Shown here in pieces: positions 1,750-60,209 of a DNA stretch of 60,209 nt (the stretch's first letter is position 1; each line of letters starts with the position of its first letter). Made by a program: the position numbers and the translations under genes. The notes under the pieces were generated by a model, which saw only the letters and a list, made by a program, of their open reading frames with translations, had not been told where the DNA came from and ran no database searches. The DNA is from a virus (Duplodnaviria > Caudoviricetes), in the IMG/VR virus record IMGVR_UViG_3300037518_000230, positions 1-60,209 of that record; one strand, 5' to 3'.

Positions 1750-4428
1750 ATGACCGTCGAAATTATCAAGCGCTCGACCTTCGAGAACTTTCTATGCGAT
1801 AACTTCCAGGCCTCCTGGGAAACCCTGGGCGTCCTTTATGGGGAATGGGTCTATCTCGTTCCCCTTAATGAGCGGGTCGGCGTTTACATCCGTTCCAGCA
1901 TCCACCAGAACGACGTCAGCGCCGAAGCCGGAGAGGATAGTATCCGAGTGATGCTCTTTGATCGAGAGGAACGCAAACATATCAGCGTCAAAACTTCTCG
2001 ATGGATCACCCGCGTTCCCGGATGGCAAAACCGCCTTCTCGATGCGATCGATCAACTCACACAATGGCACAGCCTCGCCGGATTTTGCGAGAAGTGCGGA
2101 GCCCCGAAGAACATCTTCAAGGTGAAGAAAGACGGGAAAAACAAGGATCGGATGTTCGGGAAATGCACCGTCTGTAACGACGGCTTCGTCTGGCTCGATG
2201 AGGTCAAAACCGCTTGGCTCGACGAGATCGAAGCCGAGGCAGCAGAGACCGATTCGGACTTGACAGAAATGGACATTTCTAGTATAGTTGACATCGAACC
2301 GAGAGAGAGAAAGGAAAACTCGATGTCATTGAACCCCTATCAACTAGAGATCGTCGAAGCACTCGCTAAGGGACCCCAGGTTATTGAGGCGTGCCCCGGA
2401 AGCGGGAAAACCCGCACAATCGAGAACCTCGTTGCGGCGCTGATCGAGTCGGGTGAAAATCCCGGCCGGATCGGTGCTTTTACGTTCTCCCGAAATGCCG
2501 CAAACGAAATGCGCTGGCGAATTGCTCGGACCATCTGGCCGGATGCGAGCGAGCAGAAACTCGCCTATTATGCGAACCCCTATGACGAGACGCTGAAATT
2601 CGAATACGAGGACCGGAACGACCCAGTGCACAATTTCTTGGTCGATTGGGTTTGCACGATCCACGCCCTAAGTTACCGGATGCTTCGGGCAAACGGCGAG
2701 AAGTTCCGGGTACTCTCCGGTAAGTGGGAATGGGAAGTAAAGGAGCTTCTCCGGGATAGCATGGCAGAACTCGATTGGGCTGACGAGAGCCTCCGAAGCG
2801 TCCGGGTATGGATCAGTCGAGCTATCACCAACCTGATCCTTCCGGGGAACTGCGAGAACTGGTTCGCCGATCGGATCGCCGCTCACGACGGCCCGGTCTG
2901 GAACGCCCCGAAGCTCGCCGAACTTTACCGTCGTTATATGGCCTTTATGAAGGCGCATAACCTGATCGACTTCGACATGATGCAATCCCGTGTAGTTTAT
3001 AAGCTCCGCAACGATCCGGCCTTCCGGCGATGGACCCAGGACCTCTTCGACTACGTTATCGTTGACGAGGCCCAGGACACGAGCGATCAGCAGAGCGAAA
3101 TCCTTTTCACGCTCGCCGAGAAGAGCGGGAACATCGTCTATTGCGGTGACGTCGATCAGTCGATGTACGCCTTCCGGGGAGCGCAACCGGCCGTACTCCG
3201 AGAGCACTTCGAGAGCCGATGGCCGGAAGTTCGCCGCTTCAATCTGCCGATCAACTACCGATCGACACAGCGAATTGTAAAGTCGGCAGCGTCCCTGATC
3301 GAGCGGAACTATAACGGCCCTTCCGACCCCTATCTAAAGCCCTTCCAGTATCGAGACGATGCACCCGAAGGCGAAACGATCGGCTATACCGAGTTTGGCT
3401 CGATCGAGGATATGGCACAGTCGATCACGCAGCTAGTGGTCGATAGCGATCGCCCCGGCGACTGGTTCGTTCTTAGCCGGACTCGTGCCGAGTGCGCCGC
3501 CCTCCATATCGCACTGATCGCCCAGGGTATCCCGGCGATCAACGCGGTCGGCGGGCTCCTCTTCGGAGCTCCTCACGTTCGTAAAGTCCTCGCCTATGCG
3601 CAACTCGGATGCAACTATCAGGACGCCCGGAACAATACCGAAATCCTCAAAGAGATTGCCAACGTCGCTACGGTTCACTTCCGGGCCCCGATGACCCGCC
3701 GCCGTCACATCGACGGGTGCGACAATACGAGGTCCTGGGTAAATTGCGGATGCCCGATCGTTATGGAAGAAGGGATCGACTATAGTCACTCCCGTTTCTA
3801 TGGTGCTCGCTCGATCGAAGAGGCCGGGAACTGGGAAGGTGTCGTAGCCCAACAGTTCGATCGCAACCGGGGAAATTATCCGACCATGAAGGCGAAGGGC
3901 TCATACGATCTCGTCTCATTCGTCAAGCGGATCGAGGCGCTACAGGATAACGCCCGGCTCGCCCTGAGACTTATTATCGACGAGTGCGCTCTCCCTTGGC
4001 TTCAAGCCGATGAGGGCCTGAGCGATGAAGACCTCGCCGAGAACGGCAAGACCGAAGACTTCGATCTCCTGATCGAGATGATCGAGGGCGAGATGACCTT
4101 AGCCCAGTACCTCGATAGCATCGAAGAGATCACCCGGAGCTCATCGAGCGAAGGCGAGAACGAGTGTGTAATTCTAGCGACCTGCCATTGGGCGAAGGGC
4201 GCAGAGCGAGAGAACGTTATCGTTAACACAACACGCCTTCCGATCGTTCCACCACAAACTCCCGAAGGCAAACTCCCGGTTGGCCGTCCTCCGGCGATCT
4301 CCGAAGAGCGACGTCTCTTCTACGTCGCCGTAACACGCGCGAAACAGGCCTGCTACGTTATGCATAGCAACGTATGGAACGGCCGGGAAACGAACCCGTC
4401 TCAGTTCGTCTATGAGATACAAAGCTGA
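1750..4428 (+). CDS. UvrD/Rep (SF1) helicase with N-terminal GRF-like zinc-finger domain; internal start at 2323
   Basis: ACPGSGKT, VDEAQD, GDVDQSMYAFRG, NYRST, HWAKGAE, EERRLFYVAVTRAK; CEKC..KKDGKNKDRMFGKC..C. Confidence 0.92.
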   Translation: MTVEIIKRSTFENFLCDNFQASWETLGVLYGEWVYLVPLNERVGVYIRSSIHQNDVSAEAGEDSIRVMLFDREERKHISVKTSRWITRVPGWQNRLLDAIDQLTQWHSLAGFCEKCGAPKNIFKVKKDGKNKDRMFGKCTVCNDGFVWLDEVKTAWLDEIEAEAAETDSDLTEMDISSIVDIEPRERKENSMSLNPYQLEIVEALAKGPQVIEACPGSGKTRTIENLVAALIESGENPGRIGAFTFSRNAANEMRWRIARTIWPDASEQKLAYYANPYDETLKFEYEDRNDPVHNFLVDWVCTIHALSYRMLRANGEKFRVLSGKWEWEVKELLRDSMAELDWADESLRSVRVWISRAITNLILPGNCENWFADRIAAHDGPVWNAPKLAELYRRYMAFMKAHNLIDFDMMQSRVVYKLRNDPAFRRWTQDLFDYVIVDEAQDTSDQQSEILFTLAEKSGNIVYCGDVDQSMYAFRGAQPAVLREHFESRWPEVRRFNLPINYRSTQRIVKSAASLIERNYNGPSDPYLKPFQYRDDAPEGETIGYTEFGSIEDMAQSITQLVVDSDRPGDWFVLSRTRAECAALHIALIAQGIPAINAVGGLLFGAPHVRKVLAYAQLGCNYQDARNNTEILKEIANVATVHFRAPMTRRRHIDGCDNTRSWVNCGCPIVMEEGIDYSHSRFYGARSIEEAGNWEGVVAQQFDRNRGNYPTMKAKGSYDLVSFVKRIEALQDNARLALRLIIDECALPWLQADEGLSDEDLAENGKTEDFDLLIEMIEGEMTLAQYLDSIEEITRSSSSEGENECVILATCHWAKGAERENVIVNTTRLPIVPPQTPEGKLPVGRPPAISEERRLFYVAVTRAKQACYVMHSNVWNGRETNPSQFVYEIQS
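2260..2288 (+). promoter_or_regulatory. Operator-containing promoter inside the helicase ORF
   Basis: TTGACA-17-TATAGT with AAATGGACATTT at 2267-2278; AAGGA RBS then in-frame ATG at 2323. Confidence 0.75.
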
Positions 4429-4539
4429 CAAACGAGCCAATATACTAAAGAAACCCAACGATGCCTAGCGACCCCTCCCTCCCCTCACCGCCTAGTATAT
4501 GGGGAGGAGATCGTCTCAACCGAGAGAAAGGATAAGATC

Positions 4540-35418: not shown

Positions 35419-35743
35419 AACCGGATGCCCGCATACCTCAGCGTCACAACCGTGTACGATCTGTGCCGAAGTTTACCGAGCGCTTGATGCACTCTTCCCG
35501 AAGGGATGGGAAAAAGACGACATACTCAGTCTCGGATCGACCGTTGAGGGCGTCGTCAAGACATCGTTCGAAGATATGCAACGAGCCGAAGCCGCCGAAG
35601 CCGAGATCGAGCGGCTGTGGGAGGCGCTGGGAAGTGTTCGCGGTTTGCTTGAGCCGTATCCTATAGAGAATTTCCGGGTCACTCATACGATGTACTCGGA
35701 TTGGTGGAACAAGATTGGTGATCTGCTAGGAGCCAATGCTTAG
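35408..35743 (+). CDS. Small cassette protein (shares its C-terminal module with 36216..36482)
   Basis: IERLWEALGSVRGLLEPYPI. Confidence 0.6.
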   Translation: MKNKTGCPHTSASQPCTICAEVYRALDALFPKGWEKDDILSLGSTVEGVVKTSFEDMQRAEAAEAEIERLWEALGSVRGLLEPYPIENFRVTHTMYSDWWNKIGDLLGANA

Positions 35744-36223: not shown

Positions 36224-36482
36224 GTACGATGGCATAAACTGGGACAGAATGGCGTCGTTGTTGAATAACGACAAGTGGTCGGACTGGCGTGATGTCGTCG
36301 GTGAGCAGGAGAAGATCATCAAGGATCTGAAATCCAAGATCGAGCGGCTGCGGGAGGCGTTGGGGGGCGTACGCGGCTTGCTTGAGCCGTATCCTATACA
36401 ACACTTCGAAGTTACGCAAACGATGTATGCTGACTGGTGGCATAAGATCGGCGAAATACTGGATGCCGACGATGAAGCCTGA
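36216..36482 (+). CDS. Small cassette protein
   Basis: IERLREALGGVRGLLEPYPI. Confidence 0.6.
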   Translation: MSEYDGINWDRMASLLNNDKWSDWRDVVGEQEKIIKDLKSKIERLREALGGVRGLLEPYPIQHFEVTQTMYADWWHKIGEILDADDEA

Positions 36483-54373: not shown

Positions 54374-54832
54374 ATGGGGAAGAATAAAACATCCATTGAG
54401 GCAATGTCAGAAATTAGACTAGACGCACAGTCTCGTAACCTCGACTTCGATTATAGGCTAAAGGAAGCTAGGCGATTCTCTCGCAAAGTTCAGAACGGAG
54501 AGAACACTCATTTTGTATATTTCATTAGTTCTTATTGGTTCAATTTTGTAAAGATTGGAATAACACGACAGACCAATCTCGTGTATCGATTGCAAGCACT
54601 TCAAGTCGGAAATCCATTTCCGCTAGACTATATTGGCCTAGTGATAACTAGACGACCTCGGAAGACAGAGCGGAACTTGCACTTCACCTACCGGGAATAT
54701 CAAGCTACCGGGGAGTGGTTCGATATAAAAGATCAATACGTAAACGAGATCAAAAGCCGCTACCAAGATGAATACTTTGACGTCGGAGTTGCCTCGATCG
54801 AATATGCCCTGATCCCCGGTAAGACAATATAA
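54374..54832 (+). CDS. T5orf172/MUG113-type GIY-YIG-like protein
   Basis: FVYFI..VKIGIT..RLQALQVGNP..ERNLH..GEWF. Confidence 0.85.
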   Translation: MGKNKTSIEAMSEIRLDAQSRNLDFDYRLKEARRFSRKVQNGENTHFVYFISSYWFNFVKIGITRQTNLVYRLQALQVGNPFPLDYIGLVITRRPRKTERNLHFTYREYQATGEWFDIKDQYVNEIKSRYQDEYFDVGVASIEYALIPGKTI

Positions 54833-54934: not shown

Positions 54935-55029
54935 GGCTCGAACAACATTGGAAGAAGAATATCGCCCCATCTTCTTCTTCCTGCCTTCGAATAGAAGATT
55001 GGAAGAAGAAGATTAAATGTCCATTCTTC

Positions 55030-55059
55030 TTGACATGAAATGGCCCTTTGTGCTAAAAT
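55030..55059 (+). promoter_or_regulatory. Promoter flanked by operator sites
   Basis: TTGACA-18-TAAAAT; AAATGTCCATT at about 55015 and AAATGGACAT at about 55056. Confidence 0.7.
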
Positions 55060-55158
55060 GGACATGAGACACGAGAAAGGAGGCACATGGGGTGAACTTC
55101 AGGTATCGTATTATCGACTAAAACCGTAATGCTCGACGCAAAATACAAGGAGAATTCT

Positions 55159-55866
55159 ATGTCGTTCTTAGATCAACTCGACCAGCTAGAACAGGAAGCG
55201 TCTTCCGGCGGCGGTATTATCGGCCGGATCAATTTCGAGATCGGCGAGAAGTGCTTCGTCGCCGGTGTCGGGAATGAGGAGAGCTTCTTCTCATTTCAGC
55301 CCGGCAATCCCGAATCGAAAGAGGCGGCGCTCGCCCAGGCCAAGGAACTGATCTCGAACTCCGGCGGCGGCTTCCGGCACAGCGTTGCCGTGCAGTTCCG
55401 GGTTTATCGCGATCAGGTGCTCGGCCGGGAAGTGAACTGGATGGGCGATCGCTTCTTCACGCATCCGCTCTGGACCGACGGCTACAAACATGTTGTCAAG
55501 CCCGCTCTCGCCGAGATCGGCGTTGAGAACGTGGGGGAGTATTGGGGACGAATCTCATTCGCTCCCGATCCGAGCGGCCGGATGGAGAAGGACCAGGACG
55601 GAAACGATCGCGTTGCAATGCTCGGCTTCTTAGCCGAGGTTTATGACAGCGAAGAAGCCGCGCAGCAGGCAGCAGGAGCCTTCGCTTCTTCGACGGCTTC
55701 TTCTACGCCGTCAAGCGATCCAAGCATTCCGGCCGGATGGACCGTAGATGGCTGGAATAGTGTCAAGCCGGAGATCGCCAAGGAATTGGCGGCCGGGAAA
55801 ACCATCCCGGACGTCGCGAAAGCCTATGGAGTCGAGCCCCGTTTTGTGTCTCAAGCTAGCTCATAG
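55159..55866 (+). CDS. Putative ssDNA-binding/recombination protein with C-terminal HTH
   Basis: AGGAG RBS; low-complexity linker; GKTIPDVAKAYGVEP. Confidence 0.45.
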   Translation: MSFLDQLDQLEQEASSGGGIIGRINFEIGEKCFVAGVGNEESFFSFQPGNPESKEAALAQAKELISNSGGGFRHSVAVQFRVYRDQVLGREVNWMGDRFFTHPLWTDGYKHVVKPALAEIGVENVGEYWGRISFAPDPSGRMEKDQDGNDRVAMLGFLAEVYDSEEAAQQAAGAFASSTASSTPSSDPSIPAGWTVDGWNSVKPEIAKELAAGKTIPDVAKAYGVEPRFVSQASS

Positions 55867-55930
55867 GTAGAATTTGTATCGGTACGCGGGAGGGGGTTTA
55901 TCCCCCTCCCCACCCCTAAAGGAGAAACCA

Positions 55931-56116
55931 ATGGATCAAAAACACGAGATCGTCTGGGTCGTGCAGGGCCTCTATGTCGGCGAAGAAGGCATCGAATGGG
56001 AGGACGTGTACGAAGACACCGACAAGGCCATATCAGAAGACAACCTTCGTCGCTACGACGAGAACGAACCAACCTTCCGTCACCGTCTTGTTCGGCGAAA
56101 GATCGTCATCCTGTAG
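55931..56116 (+). CDS. Small hypothetical protein
   Basis: AAGGAG RBS; MDQKHEIVWVVQG..WEDV. Confidence 0.6.
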   Translation: MDQKHEIVWVVQGLYVGEEGIEWEDVYEDTDKAISEDNLRRYDENEPTFRHRLVRRKIVIL

Positions 56117-56133
56117 CCCAACATATACTCGGC

Positions 56134-56214
56134 AAGTAAGCCGGAAGTCCGAAGCAACCCATAGAGCACGAGCGAGCCAGAGAATTGAAGAAACCCGATA
56201 CTTGGAAGCGAGGG
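56134..56214 (+). ncRNA. TIGR-like dual-repeat guide array, upstream part (two 36-nt units)
   Basis: aagtaagcc-GGAAGTCCG-aagcaaccc-ATAGAGCAC-gagcgagcc-AGAGAATTG-aagaaaccc-GATACTTGG-aagcgaggg. Confidence 0.8.
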
Positions 56215-56222
56215 ATTAAAAA

Positions 56223-57089
56223 ATGAGCACCAAACAACGGCTTTATCAGGAACTTTTCGAGCGACAGAACGGCCTGTGCGCATCCTGCGATTGCGAACTC
56301 GTCGATCGCTATACGACCCAGATTGATAGGATTATTCCAGGAAAAGACGGCGGGCAATACGTCATCGATAACTGCCGTCTTATCTGCCTTCCGTGCGACT
56401 GGAAGAAAGAAGGGAATAAACCGAGATCGAAATATCCAGAGCTTGCCTCGGCCTATCGAACTTACAAGATGTGGCAAACTATGCACGGATCGATGGACCG
56501 TAAAATTCGAGCTTTTACCGGTGATATCGCCGGGACGACCAGATCGCCTTACATCGATGGCTTCACTCTTCAAGAGATCATTGATCTAAAGGACTACTTC
56601 AAAGATCAAGAAAAAATGTCTCAAAAAAGAGTAAAGCATCTAGTAAGAGAAACTCCGGAATGGATTGCCTTCCTGAAAGACGCACCCGGATGTGCCGAGA
56701 TTTTAGCCGCGCACCTGTTGTCACGAGTTGATATCGGAAAAGCTGAAAACGTCTCTTCTCTGTGGCGCTTCTTCGGTTTTGATCCCGCTAACGCCGCCGG
56801 TCAAAAGGGCAGAAATCCGGGTCTAGGTTCTGAGCGTGCGCCTATCTATGCCGCCCTGAGTATCTCGGTTTGCACCCGAACCGATAGCGAGTATCGCAAA
56901 ATCTATGATACTTACCGCGGTCGTGATGTCAGCCATGGTGGTGCTCTTCTAAGGACCATAAAATTATGGCTCAGTCATTTATGGTCGGCATGGCGAGAGT
57001 TCGAGGAGTTACCTGTAACAGTACCGTATGCGAATAATCACCTGGGGCATGATGGCTTTTATGATCGGAAGGAGTTCGGCTGGAAATAG
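56223..57089 (+). CDS. tasH: TasH-like protein (HNH-like domain, coiled coil, Nop/IS110-like RNA-binding domain)
   Basis: CASC..IDRIIPGKDGGQY..NCRLICLPC; FLKDAPGCAEILAAHLLSRVDIGKAENVSSLWRFFG; KLWLSHLWSAWR..LPVTVPY..HLGH; arrays on both sides. Confidence 0.82.
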   Translation: MSTKQRLYQELFERQNGLCASCDCELVDRYTTQIDRIIPGKDGGQYVIDNCRLICLPCDWKKEGNKPRSKYPELASAYRTYKMWQTMHGSMDRKIRAFTGDIAGTTRSPYIDGFTLQEIIDLKDYFKDQEKMSQKRVKHLVRETPEWIAFLKDAPGCAEILAAHLLSRVDIGKAENVSSLWRFFGFDPANAAGQKGRNPGLGSERAPIYAALSISVCTRTDSEYRKIYDTYRGRDVSHGGALLRTIKLWLSHLWSAWREFEELPVTVPYANNHLGHDGFYDRKEFGWK

Positions 57090-57236
57090 CCCGGAGGGGT
57101 GAAGAAACCCATCCTGAGAAAGCGAGCCAAAGAATCCAAGTAAACCAGCTTGTATAAGCGAGCCGGAAGTGTGAAGAAACCCATCATGGGTAAGCGAGCC
57201 AGTCCCATCAAGAAACCCAGTGATGCAAAGCGATCT
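57084..57236 (+). ncRNA. TIGR-like dual-repeat guide array, downstream part (four 36-nt units)
   Basis: Alternating aagcgagcc and aagaaaccc 9-mers with 9-nt spacers GGAGGGGTG/ATCCTGAGA, AAAGAATCC/AGCTTGTAT, GGAAGTGTG/ATCATGGGT, AGTCCCATC/AGTGATGCA. Confidence 0.88.
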
Positions 57237-57338
57237 AGACATGAATAGAAGCGAAATGATCGGAACAAGCAAAACAACGCACCCCCTTATACGAGGCACT
57301 CGCGGGTGTAAGAACTGAAATTACAGGGAGACATAAAT

Positions 57339-58178
57339 ATGATTATCATCGATCCGACCGAGGCGCGCGAGAGCTCAAGGCTCCCAACAATCGAAGGCGC
57401 GGTTGAGTGTCCTTTTCTCGAAGAGGCGACCGGCGCTGACATCATGATCTCGCCCCTGATCATCCCCGCTCTAACCGAAGAGCTCCTTCGAAAGCACATC
57501 GTGGCCGGAGCGCTTCTCATTCAACGTAAGAGCGGCGACGACCTTCTTCACTCCCTTGGCGATCGTCTCAATAGCTCTCTGGCCCGTATGCGGGCTACTG
57601 GCGCTCGACAGGCTCAATGCGTCCTTCTCTTCATCGGCCGGTTCGACGTTGGTCCGAAGGCCGAGGCGATCATCGACGGCTCGCTTGCGATCCGGAATAC
57701 AAGCTACTGGGGAGTACAGGGAGCCTTCTCGAAATGGCATGACCGAGGCGGCGTCGTCGAACAACTTCACGACCATCGCCTTCTTGCCGACTGGATAAAA
57801 CTCCGAGAGAAGCACGTCAACGAGTATGTCGAGCGTCCCATAAAAGACGTCTATCGTCCCACGCCCGATGTAACCGAGGTCGATCTCGAAGTCCTTCAGA
57901 CGCTCCGGCCAGTAAATGACTGGCGGGTCGTCGTCGCCGCACTTCCCGGCATTGGTCCGAAGAGAGCGAATGCTCTTCAGGAAACTATGAAAGCGGAGGT
58001 GGGAACCGATAATCTGGTAACGGCCCTGATCTGGCTAACGACACCCTGGCTCGGCAAGAAAGTTCCGGGGATCGGAGACGGTATTATCAACAATCTTCGA
58101 GAGTTCATGCAACTCGAAGATATCTACGCGATTAAGATCGGGTTCTTGAGTGAATTATCAGTTACCGCACACGATTGA
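57339..58178 (+). CDS. ERCC4/XPF-like nuclease with helix-hairpin-helix motifs
   Basis: IIIDPTE, GADIM, IQRKSGDDLLHS, LPGIGPKRA, VPGIG. Confidence 0.78.
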   Translation: MIIIDPTEARESSRLPTIEGAVECPFLEEATGADIMISPLIIPALTEELLRKHIVAGALLIQRKSGDDLLHSLGDRLNSSLARMRATGARQAQCVLLFIGRFDVGPKAEAIIDGSLAIRNTSYWGVQGAFSKWHDRGGVVEQLHDHRLLADWIKLREKHVNEYVERPIKDVYRPTPDVTEVDLEVLQTLRPVNDWRVVVAALPGIGPKRANALQETMKAEVGTDNLVTALIWLTTPWLGKKVPGIGDGIINNLREFMQLEDIYAIKIGFLSELSVTAHD

Positions 58179-58202
58179 CGAATGTCCATTTTGTGCTATG
58201 AT
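58175..58202 (+). promoter_or_regulatory. Operator-containing promoter
   Basis: TTGACGAATGTCCATTT..TGCTATGAT. Confidence 0.7.
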
Positions 58203-58236
58203 TGAGAAGTATGAACTAGAGAGAAAGGGAAACGCG

Positions 58237-59253
58237 ATGACCGAACCTCTTATCAAAGGATTGATCCATGTTACCGGGGAGCCCGACTCAGGGAAAACTA
58301 CCTTCGCGCTATCGTCGGGAACGCCTCCGGAGAAGATCGTCTTCCTTGACGCCGATCTAAAAACTCAATCGATCGCCGATCAACTTCGGGATTCAGGCGC
58401 TCCGCTCGGTGTGTATCACAATCTCACGCGCGAGTTCGAAATGCTCGAAGGAAATAAGCGCAAGCCGGTTGACTTCTACAACTACGTTATGGGGATCATC
58501 GATAAGATCGAGACCGGTAAGTATAGCATCCTGATCTTTGATAACTGGTCCCATCTCGAAGGCGGTATTCGAGCTAAGTCGATGGAGCAAATGAGCGATA
58601 TCAGCGACCTGACCTGGGGCCAAATCAACAAGATGCAACAGCTAACTTGGCCTGCGACCTATCGCTTCTATGAGGGGGTGCTCGATCGCCTTCTCTCGAT
58701 CGCTCCGACCGTCTTTCTGATAACGCACCTGAAGGAGAAGTATATCGGCAATACCGCTACCGGGCTCAAGGACGCACGCGGCCAGCGCCCGGTTCGAGAG
58801 AAATCTTCGATGCGGATATGGCTCCGGCATAATCCGGACGGCCCGGAGCCGATCGGCTTGGTGCTAAAACGGCCGATGCGCGTATCGGTTGTCGATGGGG
58901 CTCTCAAGCCGATCAGCATTTTGCCCCGGCGAATAAAGCCCTGCACATGGGAGAAGATCGCCGAGTATTTCGAAAGCCCTATTCAGAACCGGGAGCCGAC
59001 CGAGGAGGAAACACCGAACGCCTTCGAGCTATCGGTCCTCGACGGTATCCTAACCGAAGATCAAAAGGACGTTCTGCGCGCCGCCCTTCAGGACATCGAA
59101 GATCGGCACGAATCCGAGGCGATCGAGGCGGCTGAGTTCGCCGGAACGCTCGCCGACCGTGTAGCAGAACTCACGATGCAAGGAAAGACGATACTCGAAA
59201 TCTCGCAGGAGCTCGGTGTAAGCCCGGCCGAAGTCGCTCATGCGAAAAACTAA
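58237..59253 (+). CDS. AAA ATPase (Sak4/AAA_24-like recombination protein) with C-terminal HTH
   Basis: GEPDSGKTT, FLDAD, LIFDN, LITH; GKTILEISQELGVS. Confidence 0.75.
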   Translation: MTEPLIKGLIHVTGEPDSGKTTFALSSGTPPEKIVFLDADLKTQSIADQLRDSGAPLGVYHNLTREFEMLEGNKRKPVDFYNYVMGIIDKIETGKYSILIFDNWSHLEGGIRAKSMEQMSDISDLTWGQINKMQQLTWPATYRFYEGVLDRLLSIAPTVFLITHLKEKYIGNTATGLKDARGQRPVREKSSMRIWLRHNPDGPEPIGLVLKRPMRVSVVDGALKPISILPRRIKPCTWEKIAEYFESPIQNREPTEEETPNAFELSVLDGILTEDQKDVLRAALQDIEDRHESEAIEAAEFAGTLADRVAELTMQGKTILEISQELGVSPAEVAHAKN

Positions 59254-59268
59254 CAGGGAGAAAACAAC

Positions 59269-60209
59269 ATGAAAACAGGCATCGATATCGGATACAGCGC
59301 GGTGAAAATTATCGCCGATGGCGGCGTCAAAACGAGCCTGCCCTCGATCGTCGGAACGGCCGAGCAAGCGCGCTTCTCGGTGTACGGAAGTTCCGAAGGG
59401 ATGATTATCACCGATGAGCGAGAGCGGGATTGGCTCGTTGGGCAAAGCGCCGTCGAGCAATCCCGTATGGTTCAGCGCCGGGAAGATCGCCGCTGGATCG
59501 AGAGTGACGAGTACCGGCTCCTCTTCTTAGCGTCACTCGCGACCGTATCGCCGGATGGCGAGCGGCCTCTAACGATCGTCTCTGGCCTTCCGGTTGCGTT
59601 CTATAACGACAAGGAGAATCTTCAAAACTTCTTTATCGGAACGCACTTCGCAAAGATTCACGGTCAGGGCGATGTCTCGTGGACCGTTCGGGAGTGCCGG
59701 GTAATCCCTCAGCCCTTCGGCGCTCTCCTTAGCGAAGCGCTCGATGATGCGGGCGATATCGAGGACGGCGAGCTCGCGAATGGTCGTGTCGGAGTGATCG
59801 ACTGTGGTGGGAAGACGACAAATCTTCTGAGTGTTTATCGAATGACCGAGCGTGTTCGTGAGACGGCAAGCGTCAATGTCGGCGGGTGGGATATCGTTCG
59901 AGCGATCCGGGAAATCCTCGCCGATCGTTGCCCCGATCTAGACCTTCGAGATCACGAAGTGATTGACGCGATCCTCGACGGCGAGGTAACGTATTTCGGC
60001 GAGCGGGTCGATCTTTCAACCGAGATCAATCTCGTTGTCGCTCCGATGGCCCGGCAGGTTATCGCCCAGGCCACGCAGCTATGGAACGGCGGCGCAGGAC
60101 TGGCCCGGATCCTGATAACTGGCGGGAGCGCGGCGCTGATGGTCGATCATCTAAAATCTGCCTTCGCTCATGCTCAGATCGTTGACGACCCGATCTATGC
60201 AAACGTCCT
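59269..60209 (+). CDS. parM: ParM/StbA-family actin-like ATPase, 5' part (continues across the junction to TGA at 156-158)
   Basis: Manual translation: MKTGIDIGYSAVK (phosphate-1), SGLP, VIPQPFGA, VIDCGGKTT (phosphate-2), ITGGSA. RBS GGGAG upstream. Missing from the ORF track because it wraps. Confidence 0.9.
   Translation, partial: MKTGIDIGYSAVKIIADGGVKTSLPSIVGTAEQARFSVYGSSEGMIITDERERDWLVGQSAVEQSRMVQRREDRRWIESDEYRLLFLASLATVSPDGERPLTIVSGLPVAFYNDKENLQNFFIGTHFAKIHGQGDVSWTVRECRVIPQPFGALLSEALDDAGDIEDGELANGRVGVIDCGGKTTNLLSVYRMTERVRETASVNVGGWDIVRAIREILADRCPDLDLRDHEVIDAILDGEVTYFGERVDLSTEINLVVAPMARQVIAQATQLWNGGAGLARILITGGSAALMVDHLKSAFAHAQIVDDPIYANV
60083..60209. repeat. Terminal direct repeat, second copy
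   Basis: Identical to 1-127. Confidence 0.97.

What the first reader, a model, noticed from the sequence alone, without database searches (positions are those of the whole stretch)
56134..57236. TIGR-Tas-like RNA-guided system with the guide array split around the gene
Seen: two 9-nt repeats (consensus AAGCGAGCC and AAGAAACCC) alternate with unique 9-nt spacers at an exact 36-nt period. There are two units before the gene and four after, and the downstream array starts in the stop codon. The 288-aa gene has an HNH-like N-terminus and a Nop/IS110-like C-terminus. Known: this matches TIGR-Tas (TasH), where each processed ~36-nt RNA uses two spacers on opposite DNA strands without a PAM. Inference: the phage carries six guides, probably against competing phages, plasmids or host loci. 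The array-gene-array layout would make one transcript serve as both mRNA and pre-guide.
Basis: partly seen in the sequence, partly recalled or inferred. Interest (0 to 1): 0.92.

Follow-up and report, generated by a model that had tools for sequence, protein, structure and literature searches.

The report
Phage TIGR-TasH guide RNA locus

Summary
Window 56223..57089 (+) encodes a 288-aa protein with an N-terminal HNH domain and a C-terminal Nop domain. Its best matches by sequence and by fold are the solved TasH and TasR structures.

It is flanked on the same strand by 36-nt dual-repeat units: 2 upstream (56134-56214) and 4 downstream (57084-57236). The edge repeat AAGCGAGCC and loop repeat AAGAAACCC are nearly those of the experimentally characterised Salicola phage CGphi29 array. 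Of 42 homologue loci examined, 33 carry same-strand arrays with this edge repeat, 7 of them on both sides.

The tyrosine/histidine pair that processes the guide precursor is conserved. The HNH metal-ligand histidine of the Salicola enzyme is aspartate here.

The split layout is not new. Faure 2025 and Xu 2026 describe arrays upstream, downstream or on both sides, and inside coding ends.

Additions:
- A well-formed orphan seventh unit lies at 4430-4474, just after a helicase gene.
- Differences between near-identical phages concentrate in spacers.
- No self-target, natural target or RNA evidence was found.

Verdict: new member of a known kind, moderate interest.

The parts
56134..56214 (+). Upstream TIGR array. 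It has two 36-nt units (U1 56134-56169, U2 56170-56205) plus a 3'-altered terminal edge repeat AAGCGAGGG (56206-56214). The GAGGG of that repeat lies 8 nt before the ATG and looks like the ribosome-binding site.
   Evidence: A near-identical relative (L031) keeps the repeats and U1 but differs at 6 of the 18 spacer bases of U2.
56223..57089 (+). tasH, 288 aa. HNH domain about residues 19-63 (Cys19, Cys22, Cys55, Cys58; Asp35-Arg36, Asn50, Asp59, Glu63). Two long helices at 72-98 and 113-142 form the coiled-coil region. The Nop domain runs to the C-terminus and includes the Tyr269/His276 loop.
   Evidence: Pfam HNH E 7.3e-07. PDB phmmer: TasH E 1.6e-11, TasR entry 9mty E 7.1e-09. AlphaFold model pLDDT 90.4, pTM 0.80. 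Foldseek: TasH 9w04_B E 1.2e-14, 9mty, IS621 8wt9. Residue conservation in 34 sequences.
57084..57236 (+). Downstream TIGR array. It has four 36-nt units (D1 57084, D2 57120, D3 57156, D4 57192) and a 3'-truncated last edge repeat (57228-57236, AAGCGATCT). The first edge slot overlaps the stop codon TAG at 57087-57089.
   Evidence: In laid contigs of a relative, the only 2 differences in 293 nt fall in spacers, at 57185 and 57204.
4430..4474 (+). Orphan single TIGR unit: AAACGAGCC, spacer, AAGAAACCC, spacer, TAGCGACCC. It starts 2 nt after the stop codon of the 892-aa helicase gene (1750..4428).
   Evidence: It has 3 mismatches in 27 repeat positions. My estimate of the chance expectation for such a match in this genome is about 5e-7. 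The helicase assignment is phrog_1967, E 1.2e-83.
55030..55059 (+). Nearest upstream sigma-70-like promoter match (TTGACA, 18 nt, TAAAAT; 11 of 12). It could drive a transcript through ORF 55129..55866, the small ORF 55932..56116, both arrays and tasH.
   Evidence: Consensus scan only. No + strand terminator-like site lies between 55060 and 57387.

Best explanation
This is a dual-repeat TIGR-TasH system of a tailed phage.

Proposed mechanism:
1. A + strand transcript that runs through the upstream array, tasH and the downstream array serves as both mRNA and guide precursor. The orphan unit is probably carried on the 3' end of the helicase mRNA.
2. TasH dimerises through its two long helices.
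3. Its Nop domains bind the repeat-borne box motifs: CC followed by A or G before each spacer, and AG after it.
4. The Tyr269/His276 loop cuts inside each edge repeat and releases 36-nt guides. Each guide carries two spacers of 8-9 nt.
5. The two spacers pair with adjacent stretches on opposite DNA strands, with no flanking motif required.
6. Each HNH domain then cuts, or at least the complex binds, the paired strand.

Shown here: the protein fold, the conserved residues, the repeat architecture, its presence beside homologues, and spacer-confined variation between near-identical phages.

Inferred from published work on the Salicola phage enzyme and on TasR: processing, dual-strand pairing and cleavage.

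Unknown: the natural targets.
For: Protein:
- Pfam HNH.
- Sequence hits to solved TasH (8 entries) and TasR.
- A confident model, pLDDT 90.4. Its ten best Foldseek matches in the PDB are all TasH or TasR chains, followed by IS621.
- Tyr269 and His276 align with Tyr289 and His296 of the Salicola enzyme (alignment). Those are reported as the processing residues (NAR 2026, section read) and as a dyad conserved in dual-repeat systems (Xu 2026, section read). In the 34-sequence family alignment, position 269 is Y in 26, W in 6 and F in 2; position 276 is H in 32.

RNA side:
- Exact 36-nt phase, same strand as the gene, far beyond chance.
- The repeats are nearly those of the Salicola phage array: AAGCGAGCCA and AAGACAACCA.
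- The last edge repeats are truncated at the 3' end and the first at the 5' end, as published.

Relatives:
- 33 of 42 homologue loci have chains of this edge repeat at 36-nt spacing on the gene's strand. None of the 42 has one on the other strand. Seven have them on both sides.

Function under selection:
- Against a 97.9% identical relative (1515 nt, 32 differences), 6 differences fall in the 18 spacer bases of unit U2 and none in repeats. P = 3.7e-5 for 6 or more among the 36 upstream spacer bases.
- The same six changes appear in contigs of two other runs. In the downstream array of one of these runs, the only 2 differences in 293 nt are in spacers.
Against: - No RNA data: no RNA run holds the locus, so neither transcription nor 36-nt products are shown.
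- No rho-independent terminator follows the downstream array, unlike the typical published array.
- The arrays are short (2, 4 and 1 units against the published 'most often 5 to 15'), and the upstream repeats are imperfect.
- The HNH site is not canonical. Arg36 sits where other HNH domains have the general-base His. Asp59 sits where the Salicola enzyme has His54, whose alanine mutant is nuclease-dead. Cleavage is therefore unproven.
- No target was found. Within the phage genome there is no match with 2 or fewer mismatches of 18.
Confidence: 0.9

Rival explanations
1. It is the same TIGR-Tas system, but the HNH domain does not make double-strand breaks. The complex acts as an RNA-guided DNA binder (repressor or roadblock) or as a nickase.
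For: - Asp59 replaces the His54 that is needed for cleavage in the Salicola enzyme, and Glu63 replaces its His58 (alignment; H54A is nuclease-dead yet still represses a reporter).
- Arg36 occupies the general-base His position of other HNH domains.
- Nuclease-dead TasR and nuclease-lacking TasA are reported to act as repressors (Xu 2026, abstract).
Against: - The Salicola enzyme also has Asp-Arg at that position and cleaves DNA.
- Asp59 aligns with the final His or Asn of the HNH motif in other nucleases. From my own knowledge, that position is a metal ligand that an acidic residue can fill.
- Asp35 (31 of 34), Asn50 (34 of 34), Asp or Glu at 59 (31 of 34) and Glu63 (33 of 34) are conserved. 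This looks like a maintained metal site.
Confidence: 0.25
2. It is a decaying remnant: the gene or the arrays are no longer functional in this phage.
For: - The arrays are short.
- The upstream repeats are degenerate.
- No terminator follows the array.
- One unit is stranded far from the gene.
Against: - The reading frame is intact and every family-invariant residue is present.
- The repeats are unchanged while spacers differ among near-identical phages.
- The orphan unit keeps the parts a mature guide should need, by my reading of the published repeat model.
Confidence: 0.05
3. The periodic repeats are not guide genes. They would be protein-binding sites such as iterons or operators that merely flank an HNH gene.
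For: Short direct repeats at regular spacing can be binding sites. No RNA evidence is available here.
Against: - The repeats match those of an array shown by others to be transcribed and processed into 36-nt guides.
- They occur only on the gene's strand, in 33 of 42 homologue loci.
- Variation between relatives is confined to the spacers.
Confidence: 0.02

Closest known systems
TIGR-TasH of Salicola phage CGphi29 (SpTasH; PDB 9w03, 9w04, 9vzx, 21kl)
   Same: - HNH plus coiled-coil plus Nop architecture.
- Best sequence and fold match.
- Asp-Arg at the first HNH position.
- The Tyr/His processing pair.
- Nearly identical edge repeat (AAGCGAGCC followed by A) and a similar loop repeat.
- 36-nt unit, and a phage setting.
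   Different: - Only 24.7% identity over 92% of the protein.
- His54 and His58 are Asp59 and Glu63 here.
- The second zinc-finger cysteine pair (Cys55, Cys58) has no cysteine opposite it in the aligned Salicola segment.
- The Salicola array lies only downstream, starts about 35 nt after the stop codon and ends in a clear terminator. Here arrays abut both ends of the gene, no terminator is seen, and there is an orphan unit.
TIGR-TasR of a Thermoproteota archaeon (TaTasR; PDB 9mty)
   Same: Nop domain (phmmer E 7.1e-09, Foldseek E 3.1e-06). Dual-repeat 36-nt arrays and dual-spacer targeting.
   Different: Its nuclease is RuvC, not HNH. Its spacers are 9 nt and its repeat sequences differ.
IS110-family bridge-RNA recombinases (IS621; PDB 8wt6, 8wt9)
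   Same: Related RNA-binding Nop-like domain (Foldseek E 7e-04). A weak Transposase_20 match at E 0.24, below the Pfam cut-off.
   Different: There is no DEDD/RuvC-like catalytic domain and no single bridge RNA. The locus has arrays of guides and is not a transposon.
CRISPR-Cas arrays
   Same: An array of repeats and variable spacers lies next to an RNA-guided effector. The spacers are the variable part between strains.
   Different: Two alternating short repeats, two spacers of 8-9 nt per guide, and no adaptation genes. Spacer variation here looks like replacement in place, not addition at one end.

Membership tests
TIGR-Tas, dual-repeat TasH type | C-terminal Nop RNA-binding domain | tested here: met
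   phmmer against the PDB: TasH E 1.6e-11, TasR E 7.1e-09. Model pLDDT 90.4. Foldseek top 10 are all TasH or TasR chains, with TM up to 0.73.
TIGR-Tas, dual-repeat TasH type | N-terminal HNH nuclease domain | tested here: met
   Pfam PF01844, E 7.3e-07, 29.7 bits against a cut-off of 21.4. Beta-beta-alpha elements at 32-36, 51-55 and 56-63 in the model. Alignments to other HNH domains.
TIGR-Tas, dual-repeat TasH type | Catalytically competent HNH site | tested here: inconclusive
   Asp35-Arg36, Asn50, Asp59, Glu63. The Salicola enzyme shares Asp-Arg but has His54 where this protein has Asp59. Activity needs an assay.
TIGR-Tas, dual-repeat TasH type | Adjacent array of two alternating short repeats with two spacers per 36-nt unit, on the gene's strand | tested here: met
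   Edge and loop repeats nearly equal those of the Salicola phage array.
TIGR-Tas, dual-repeat TasH type | [quoted passage not shown] | tested here: met
   Each spacer is preceded by CC plus A or G and followed by (A)AG. The 4-nt cores are CGAG (edge, ends complementary) and AAAC (loop). This fits the 14-nt interval plus 4-nt gap model in the Xu 2026 methods passage. The assignment of the boxes is my inference.
TIGR-Tas, dual-repeat TasH type | [quoted passage not shown] | tested here: met
   Tyr269 and His276 align with Tyr289 and His296 of the Salicola enzyme. Position 276 is His in 32 of 34 family members. The loop is the only low-confidence stretch of the model, residues 269-273.
TIGR-Tas, dual-repeat TasH type | Truncated edge repeats at array ends, then a rho-independent terminator | tested here: inconclusive
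   The truncated first and last edge repeats are present. No terminator-like site follows the downstream array on the + strand. The paper says 'typically'.
TIGR-Tas, dual-repeat TasH type | Arrays beside homologous genes | tested here: met
   33 of 42 loci, and 0 of 42 on the opposite strand. By a looser unit finder, 20 of the 21 loci at 43% identity or more have units.
TIGR-Tas, dual-repeat TasH type | Array transcribed and processed into protein-bound 36-nt RNAs; RNA-guided DNA binding or cleavage | not testable with these tools
   No RNA run lists the locus. This needs a pull-down with small-RNA sequencing and cleavage assays.
IS110-family transposase | N-terminal DEDD (RuvC-like) domain plus Transposase_20 domain, with element ends and a bridge RNA | tested here: not met
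   Transposase_20 scores only E 0.24, 12.3 bits against a cut-off of 21.3. No DEDD family was listed at E up to 1, and the N-terminus is HNH.

The most novel reading that the evidence does not exclude
TIGR guide sets may renew themselves in place, without any acquisition machinery, by duplication of whole units and by replacement confined to the spacers (mutation under selection, or conversion between units). A phage may also park single guides away from tas, in the 3' ends of other genes.

Support here:
- One guide (U2) exists as two alleles that differ at 6 of 18 spacer bases. Four of the six are transversions and two are adjacent doublets. The surrounding phage genomes are 98% identical and differ mostly by transitions.
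- The alternative U2 spacer A is closer to spacer A of unit D2 (2 differences) than to the allele it replaces (4 differences).
- Near-duplicate units occur within arrays. D1 and D3 differ at 5 of 18 positions, and 11 of 1462 within-locus unit pairs differ at 5 or fewer of 18.
- A complete orphan unit follows the helicase gene.
Probability: 0.35. Interest if true: 0.6.

Novelty: new member of a known kind. Interest (0 to 1): 0.35.

Why it matters
The locus adds one more complete, well-formed TIGR-TasH system in a fully assembled 60-kb phage genome. Its effector is compact (288 aa against 309 aa for the Salicola phage gene) and keeps the self-processing residues. That makes it a reasonable candidate for biochemical comparison, especially of the Asp-for-His change at the HNH metal position.

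Its wider value is the natural variation around it. Both papers I read name the origin of TIGR spacers and their natural targets as open questions. Here near-identical phages from several samples differ almost only in spacers, and one guide sits apart from the tas gene. These give concrete material for testing how guide sets change.

None of this overturns what is known.

Tried and rejected
Self-targeting. I searched the phage genome for the reverse complement of spacer A next to spacer B, in both orders, with gaps of 0-2, and with 9-nt and 8-nt spacers.
- Six units and seven units gave no site with 2 or fewer mismatches of 18.
- Four sites had 3 mismatches (36507, 37207, 41086, 48753), against a mean of 1.14 in 100 spacer shuffles. 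Two of the 100 shuffles reached 4.
- With 8-nt spacers there were 3 hits at 2 mismatches, against a mean of 1.21. Fourteen of the 100 shuffles reached 3.
- I treat this as chance.

Target geometry. I could not settle the order of the two half-sites from the texts I read. My arithmetic on the '8-nt 3' overhangs' statement fits neither order exactly, so both were searched.

Database-wide target searches. These were not run. The expected chance hits for 16-18 specified bases exceed any signal, as the Xu 2026 passage also says. They would also have required typing joined spacer sequences.

Expression. No RNA holder is listed for the locus, so expression stays untested.

Relatives.
- A single-sequence scan of viral contigs found none.
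- A genome-contig scan with the alignment found none.
- The helicase C-terminus found no relatives in viral contigs.
- The orphan unit's repeat pattern found no other viral contig.
- Conservation of the orphan unit is therefore untested.

Other checks.
- Rfam gave no match in 55000-58000 at E up to 1.
- The orphan unit is 4 of 18 positions from a unit in L033. By my rough estimate a few such matches are expected by chance among 47,993 pairs, so I rejected it as a signal.
- The near-duplicate statistic is not corrected for redundant loci and is suggestive only.
- L031 and runs X3 and X4 may not be independent samples of one population.
- The supplements of Faure 2025 (table of loci) and the TIGRSafari resource could not be seen, so I cannot say whether this very locus is already catalogued.

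Papers.
- Faure 2025 (PMC12045711): outline, abstract, sections 4-7, 10, 24, 49 and found passages.
- Xu 2026 preprint (10.64898/2026.09.09.750476): outline, abstract, sections 5 and 10, found passages.
- Zhou 2026 (PMC13421893): outline, abstract, sections 4, 15, 21, found passages.
- Guan 2026 preprint (10.64898/2026.08.11.744272): outline, abstract, section 8, found passages.
- Yeast preprint (10.64898/2026.07.30.739390): found passages only.
- The remaining papers appeared only in search listings.

Full report
What the window is. The window is a whole virus record of 60,209 bases, rated 100% complete, with 127-nt identical ends. It encodes a tape measure protein, a virion structural protein and a helicase, so it is a tailed phage. 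The finding lies in a block of + strand genes that runs from about 48.9 kb to the right end. On a circular map this block continues into the left end, where the helicase lies.

The observation. Reading the sequence and counting motifs confirm two alternating 9-nt repeats in exact 36-nt phase on the + strand.
- There are two units upstream of the gene (56134-56214) and four downstream (57084-57236).
- All 3 exact + strand copies of AAGCGAGCC in the genome are in the downstream array.
- 4 of the 5 exact copies of AAGAAACCC are in the two arrays.
- A scan for edge+loop half-units found 14 hits, all in three places, and none on the - strand. Shuffled genomes gave 0-3 hits.
- Tandem Repeats Finder sees a period of 36.
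- The upstream repeats carry 1-2 mismatches each.
- The first downstream edge slot is only a 3' remnant that overlaps the stop codon.
- The last edge repeats of both arrays are altered at their 3' ends. This matches the published description of array ends.

The protein. The 288-aa product has a Pfam HNH domain at residues 19-62.
- By sequence it hits the solved TasH of Salicola phage CGphi29 (E 1.6e-11) and PDB entry 9mty, which is TIGR-TasR (E 7.1e-09).
- An AlphaFold model built on 34 family sequences is confident (pLDDT 90.4, pTM 0.80). It shows a small beta-beta-alpha domain, two long helices and a helical C-terminal domain. The only low-confidence stretch is 269-273.
- Its ten best Foldseek matches in the PDB are TasH and TasR chains (best E 1.2e-14), followed by IS621 recombinase.
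- Tyr269 and His276 align with Tyr289 and His296 of the Salicola enzyme. These are reported as the residues that cut the guide precursor and as a dyad conserved in dual-repeat systems.
- In the family alignment, position 276 is His in 32 of 34. Position 269 is Tyr in 26, Trp in 6 and Phe in 2.

The HNH site. Alignments to other HNH domains place Arg36 at the position of the usual general-base His, and Asp59 at the position of the last His or Asn of the motif. The Salicola enzyme also has Asp-Arg at the first position, yet it cleaves DNA. Its nuclease-dead mutant is H54A, and His54 aligns with Asp59 here. Within the family, Asp35, Asn50, Asp or Glu at 59, and Glu63 are kept in 31-34 of 34 sequences. 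I read this as a maintained metal site and think cleavage is more likely than not. It is untested, and a binder or nickase role is the main rival.

The repeats compared. The array downstream of the Salicola phage gene reads AAGCGAGCCA, 8 nt, AAGACAACCA, 8 nt. This is nearly the same pair of repeats as here. In this phage the base after each repeat is A in 10 and G in 4 of 14 cases. The freely variable part of each spacer is therefore 8 nt, as in the Salicola phage complex, where 8 nt pair with DNA. The repeat cores fit the published box model: a 3-nt box C, a spacer, a 2-nt box D and a 4-nt gap. The edge core CGAG has complementary ends. Assigning the boxes this way is my inference.

Relatives.
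- The protein has 36 relatives of 37-73% identity in the clustered collection.
- The representative library holds 1304 matches at E up to 0.001, 14 of them at E up to 1e-30.
- I fetched 11 viral and 48 metagenomic loci and examined 42. I left out L012, L013 and L049-L061, which are short partial matches, and L035 and L037, which repeat L034's contig.
- Of the 42, 33 have chains of the edge repeat at 36-nt spacing on the gene's strand. Seven have them on both sides, 4 only upstream and 22 only downstream. None has a chain on the other strand. Many contigs end close to the gene, so 'only' is often a limit of the data.
- In L003 the start codon lies inside the last upstream edge repeat.
- In L004 and L005 the reading frame runs into the first downstream units.
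- Abutting or overlapping of array and gene is therefore common in this clade.
- More distant, shorter relatives that match only the Nop part (L006-L009 and others) use the same edge repeat.

What is already known. Faure and colleagues state that TIGR units lie 'upstream and/or downstream' of tas genes. The 2026 preprint from the same laboratory reports 6,685 arrays. The locus is a new member of a known kind.

How it most likely works. No consensus promoter or terminator separates arrays and gene. The nearest good promoter match is at 55030-55059, and no + strand terminator-like site follows the downstream array. I therefore favour one transcript that is both mRNA and guide precursor.
- Processing, dual-strand pairing and motif-free targeting are taken from published experiments.
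- The last upstream edge repeat contains the likely ribosome-binding site, and the first downstream remnant contains the stop codon. Processing could therefore feed back on translation. This is speculation, and the preprint raises the same idea.

New points seen here.
1. A seventh unit at 4430-4474 starts 2 nt after the helicase stop codon. It has 3 mismatches in 27 repeat positions. It keeps both CCA boxes, an exact loop repeat and the 5' half of a closing edge repeat. I found no relative to test its conservation.
2. A contig 97.9% identical over 1515 nt (L031) has the same upstream repeats and the same unit U1. It differs at 6 of the 18 spacer bases of U2, while the other 1,479 bases outside the upstream spacers carry 26 differences. 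P = 3.7e-5. Four of the six changes are transversions, against 3 of the 26 elsewhere.
3. The same six changes appear in contigs of runs X3 and X4. One X4 contig of 151 nt differs from the window only at these six places. Another, of 293 nt across the downstream array, differs at two places only, both in spacers. An X3 contig joins unit D4 to a different preceding unit. These samples may not be independent of L031.
4. Units D1 and D3 share 13 of 18 spacer positions. Across all loci, 11 of 1462 within-locus unit pairs differ at 5 or fewer positions, often in adjacent units. This count is not corrected for redundancy.

Together these suggest that guide sets change by unit duplication and spacer-confined replacement. 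That bears on a question both papers call open.

Targets. No convincing match to any of the seven guides exists in the phage itself. Searches of whole collections were not run, because chance matches would swamp 16-18 specified bases. No RNA data were available. The targets and the biological role (competition with other elements, host manipulation or regulation) remain unknown.

Verdict. This is a new member of a known family, and the layout is already described. Interest is moderate, mainly for the natural spacer variation, the orphan unit and the variant HNH site.

Noticed in passing
window 4430-4474 (+): An orphan, well-formed single TIGR unit lies directly after the helicase stop codon. 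On a circular map it is about 7.3 kb downstream of the tasH arrays. A C-rich hairpin-like stretch follows it (4472-4520).
   Followed up: partly
window 56179-56205 versus L031, and contigs of runs X3 and X4: Guide U2 has two alleles that differ at 6 of 18 spacer bases in otherwise roughly 98% identical phages. The repeats and unit U1 are unchanged. The variant spacer A is closer to spacer A of unit D2 than to the allele it replaces.
   Followed up: partly
window 57084-57191; L004 1384 and 1528; L024 1086-1158; L018 1347 and 1599: Near-duplicate or identical units occur within single arrays, often adjacent or two units apart. This suggests that arrays grow by unit duplication.
   Followed up: partly
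L003 2481-2500; L004 1348-1380; L005 3295-3361: In homologue loci the start codon lies inside the last upstream edge repeat (L003). In L004 and L005 the reading frame runs on into the first downstream units. The variable C-terminal tails of family members are therefore translated array sequence.
   Followed up: partly
window 59269-60209, continuing at 128: An actin-like (ALP_N / MreB-like_C) gene runs across the 127-nt terminal repeat and ends about 10 codons beyond it on a circular map (323 aa). The repeat may therefore mark a circular or permuted assembly rather than physical ends. Next to tasH lie an AAA_24 ATPase gene (58150..59253) and a gene with weak ERCC4 and helix-hairpin-helix matches (57339..58178).
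   Followed up: partly
window 35598-35734 and 36331-36467: Two 137-nt direct repeats (76% identical) lie in a stretch of about 1.3 kb with no ORF of 120 aa or more, at a strand switch. This may be an origin or a regulatory region.
   Followed up: no
window 54374-54832 (+): A MUG113 / T5orf172 domain gene (E 7.6e-13) lies about 1.4 kb upstream of the arrays.
   Followed up: no
window 55866-55930: A strong G/C hairpin (GGGAGGGGG, 5-nt loop, CCCCCTCCC) lies between ORF 55129..55866 and the small ORF 55932..56116. It is conserved in L031 apart from one loop base and has no T run after it.
   Followed up: no
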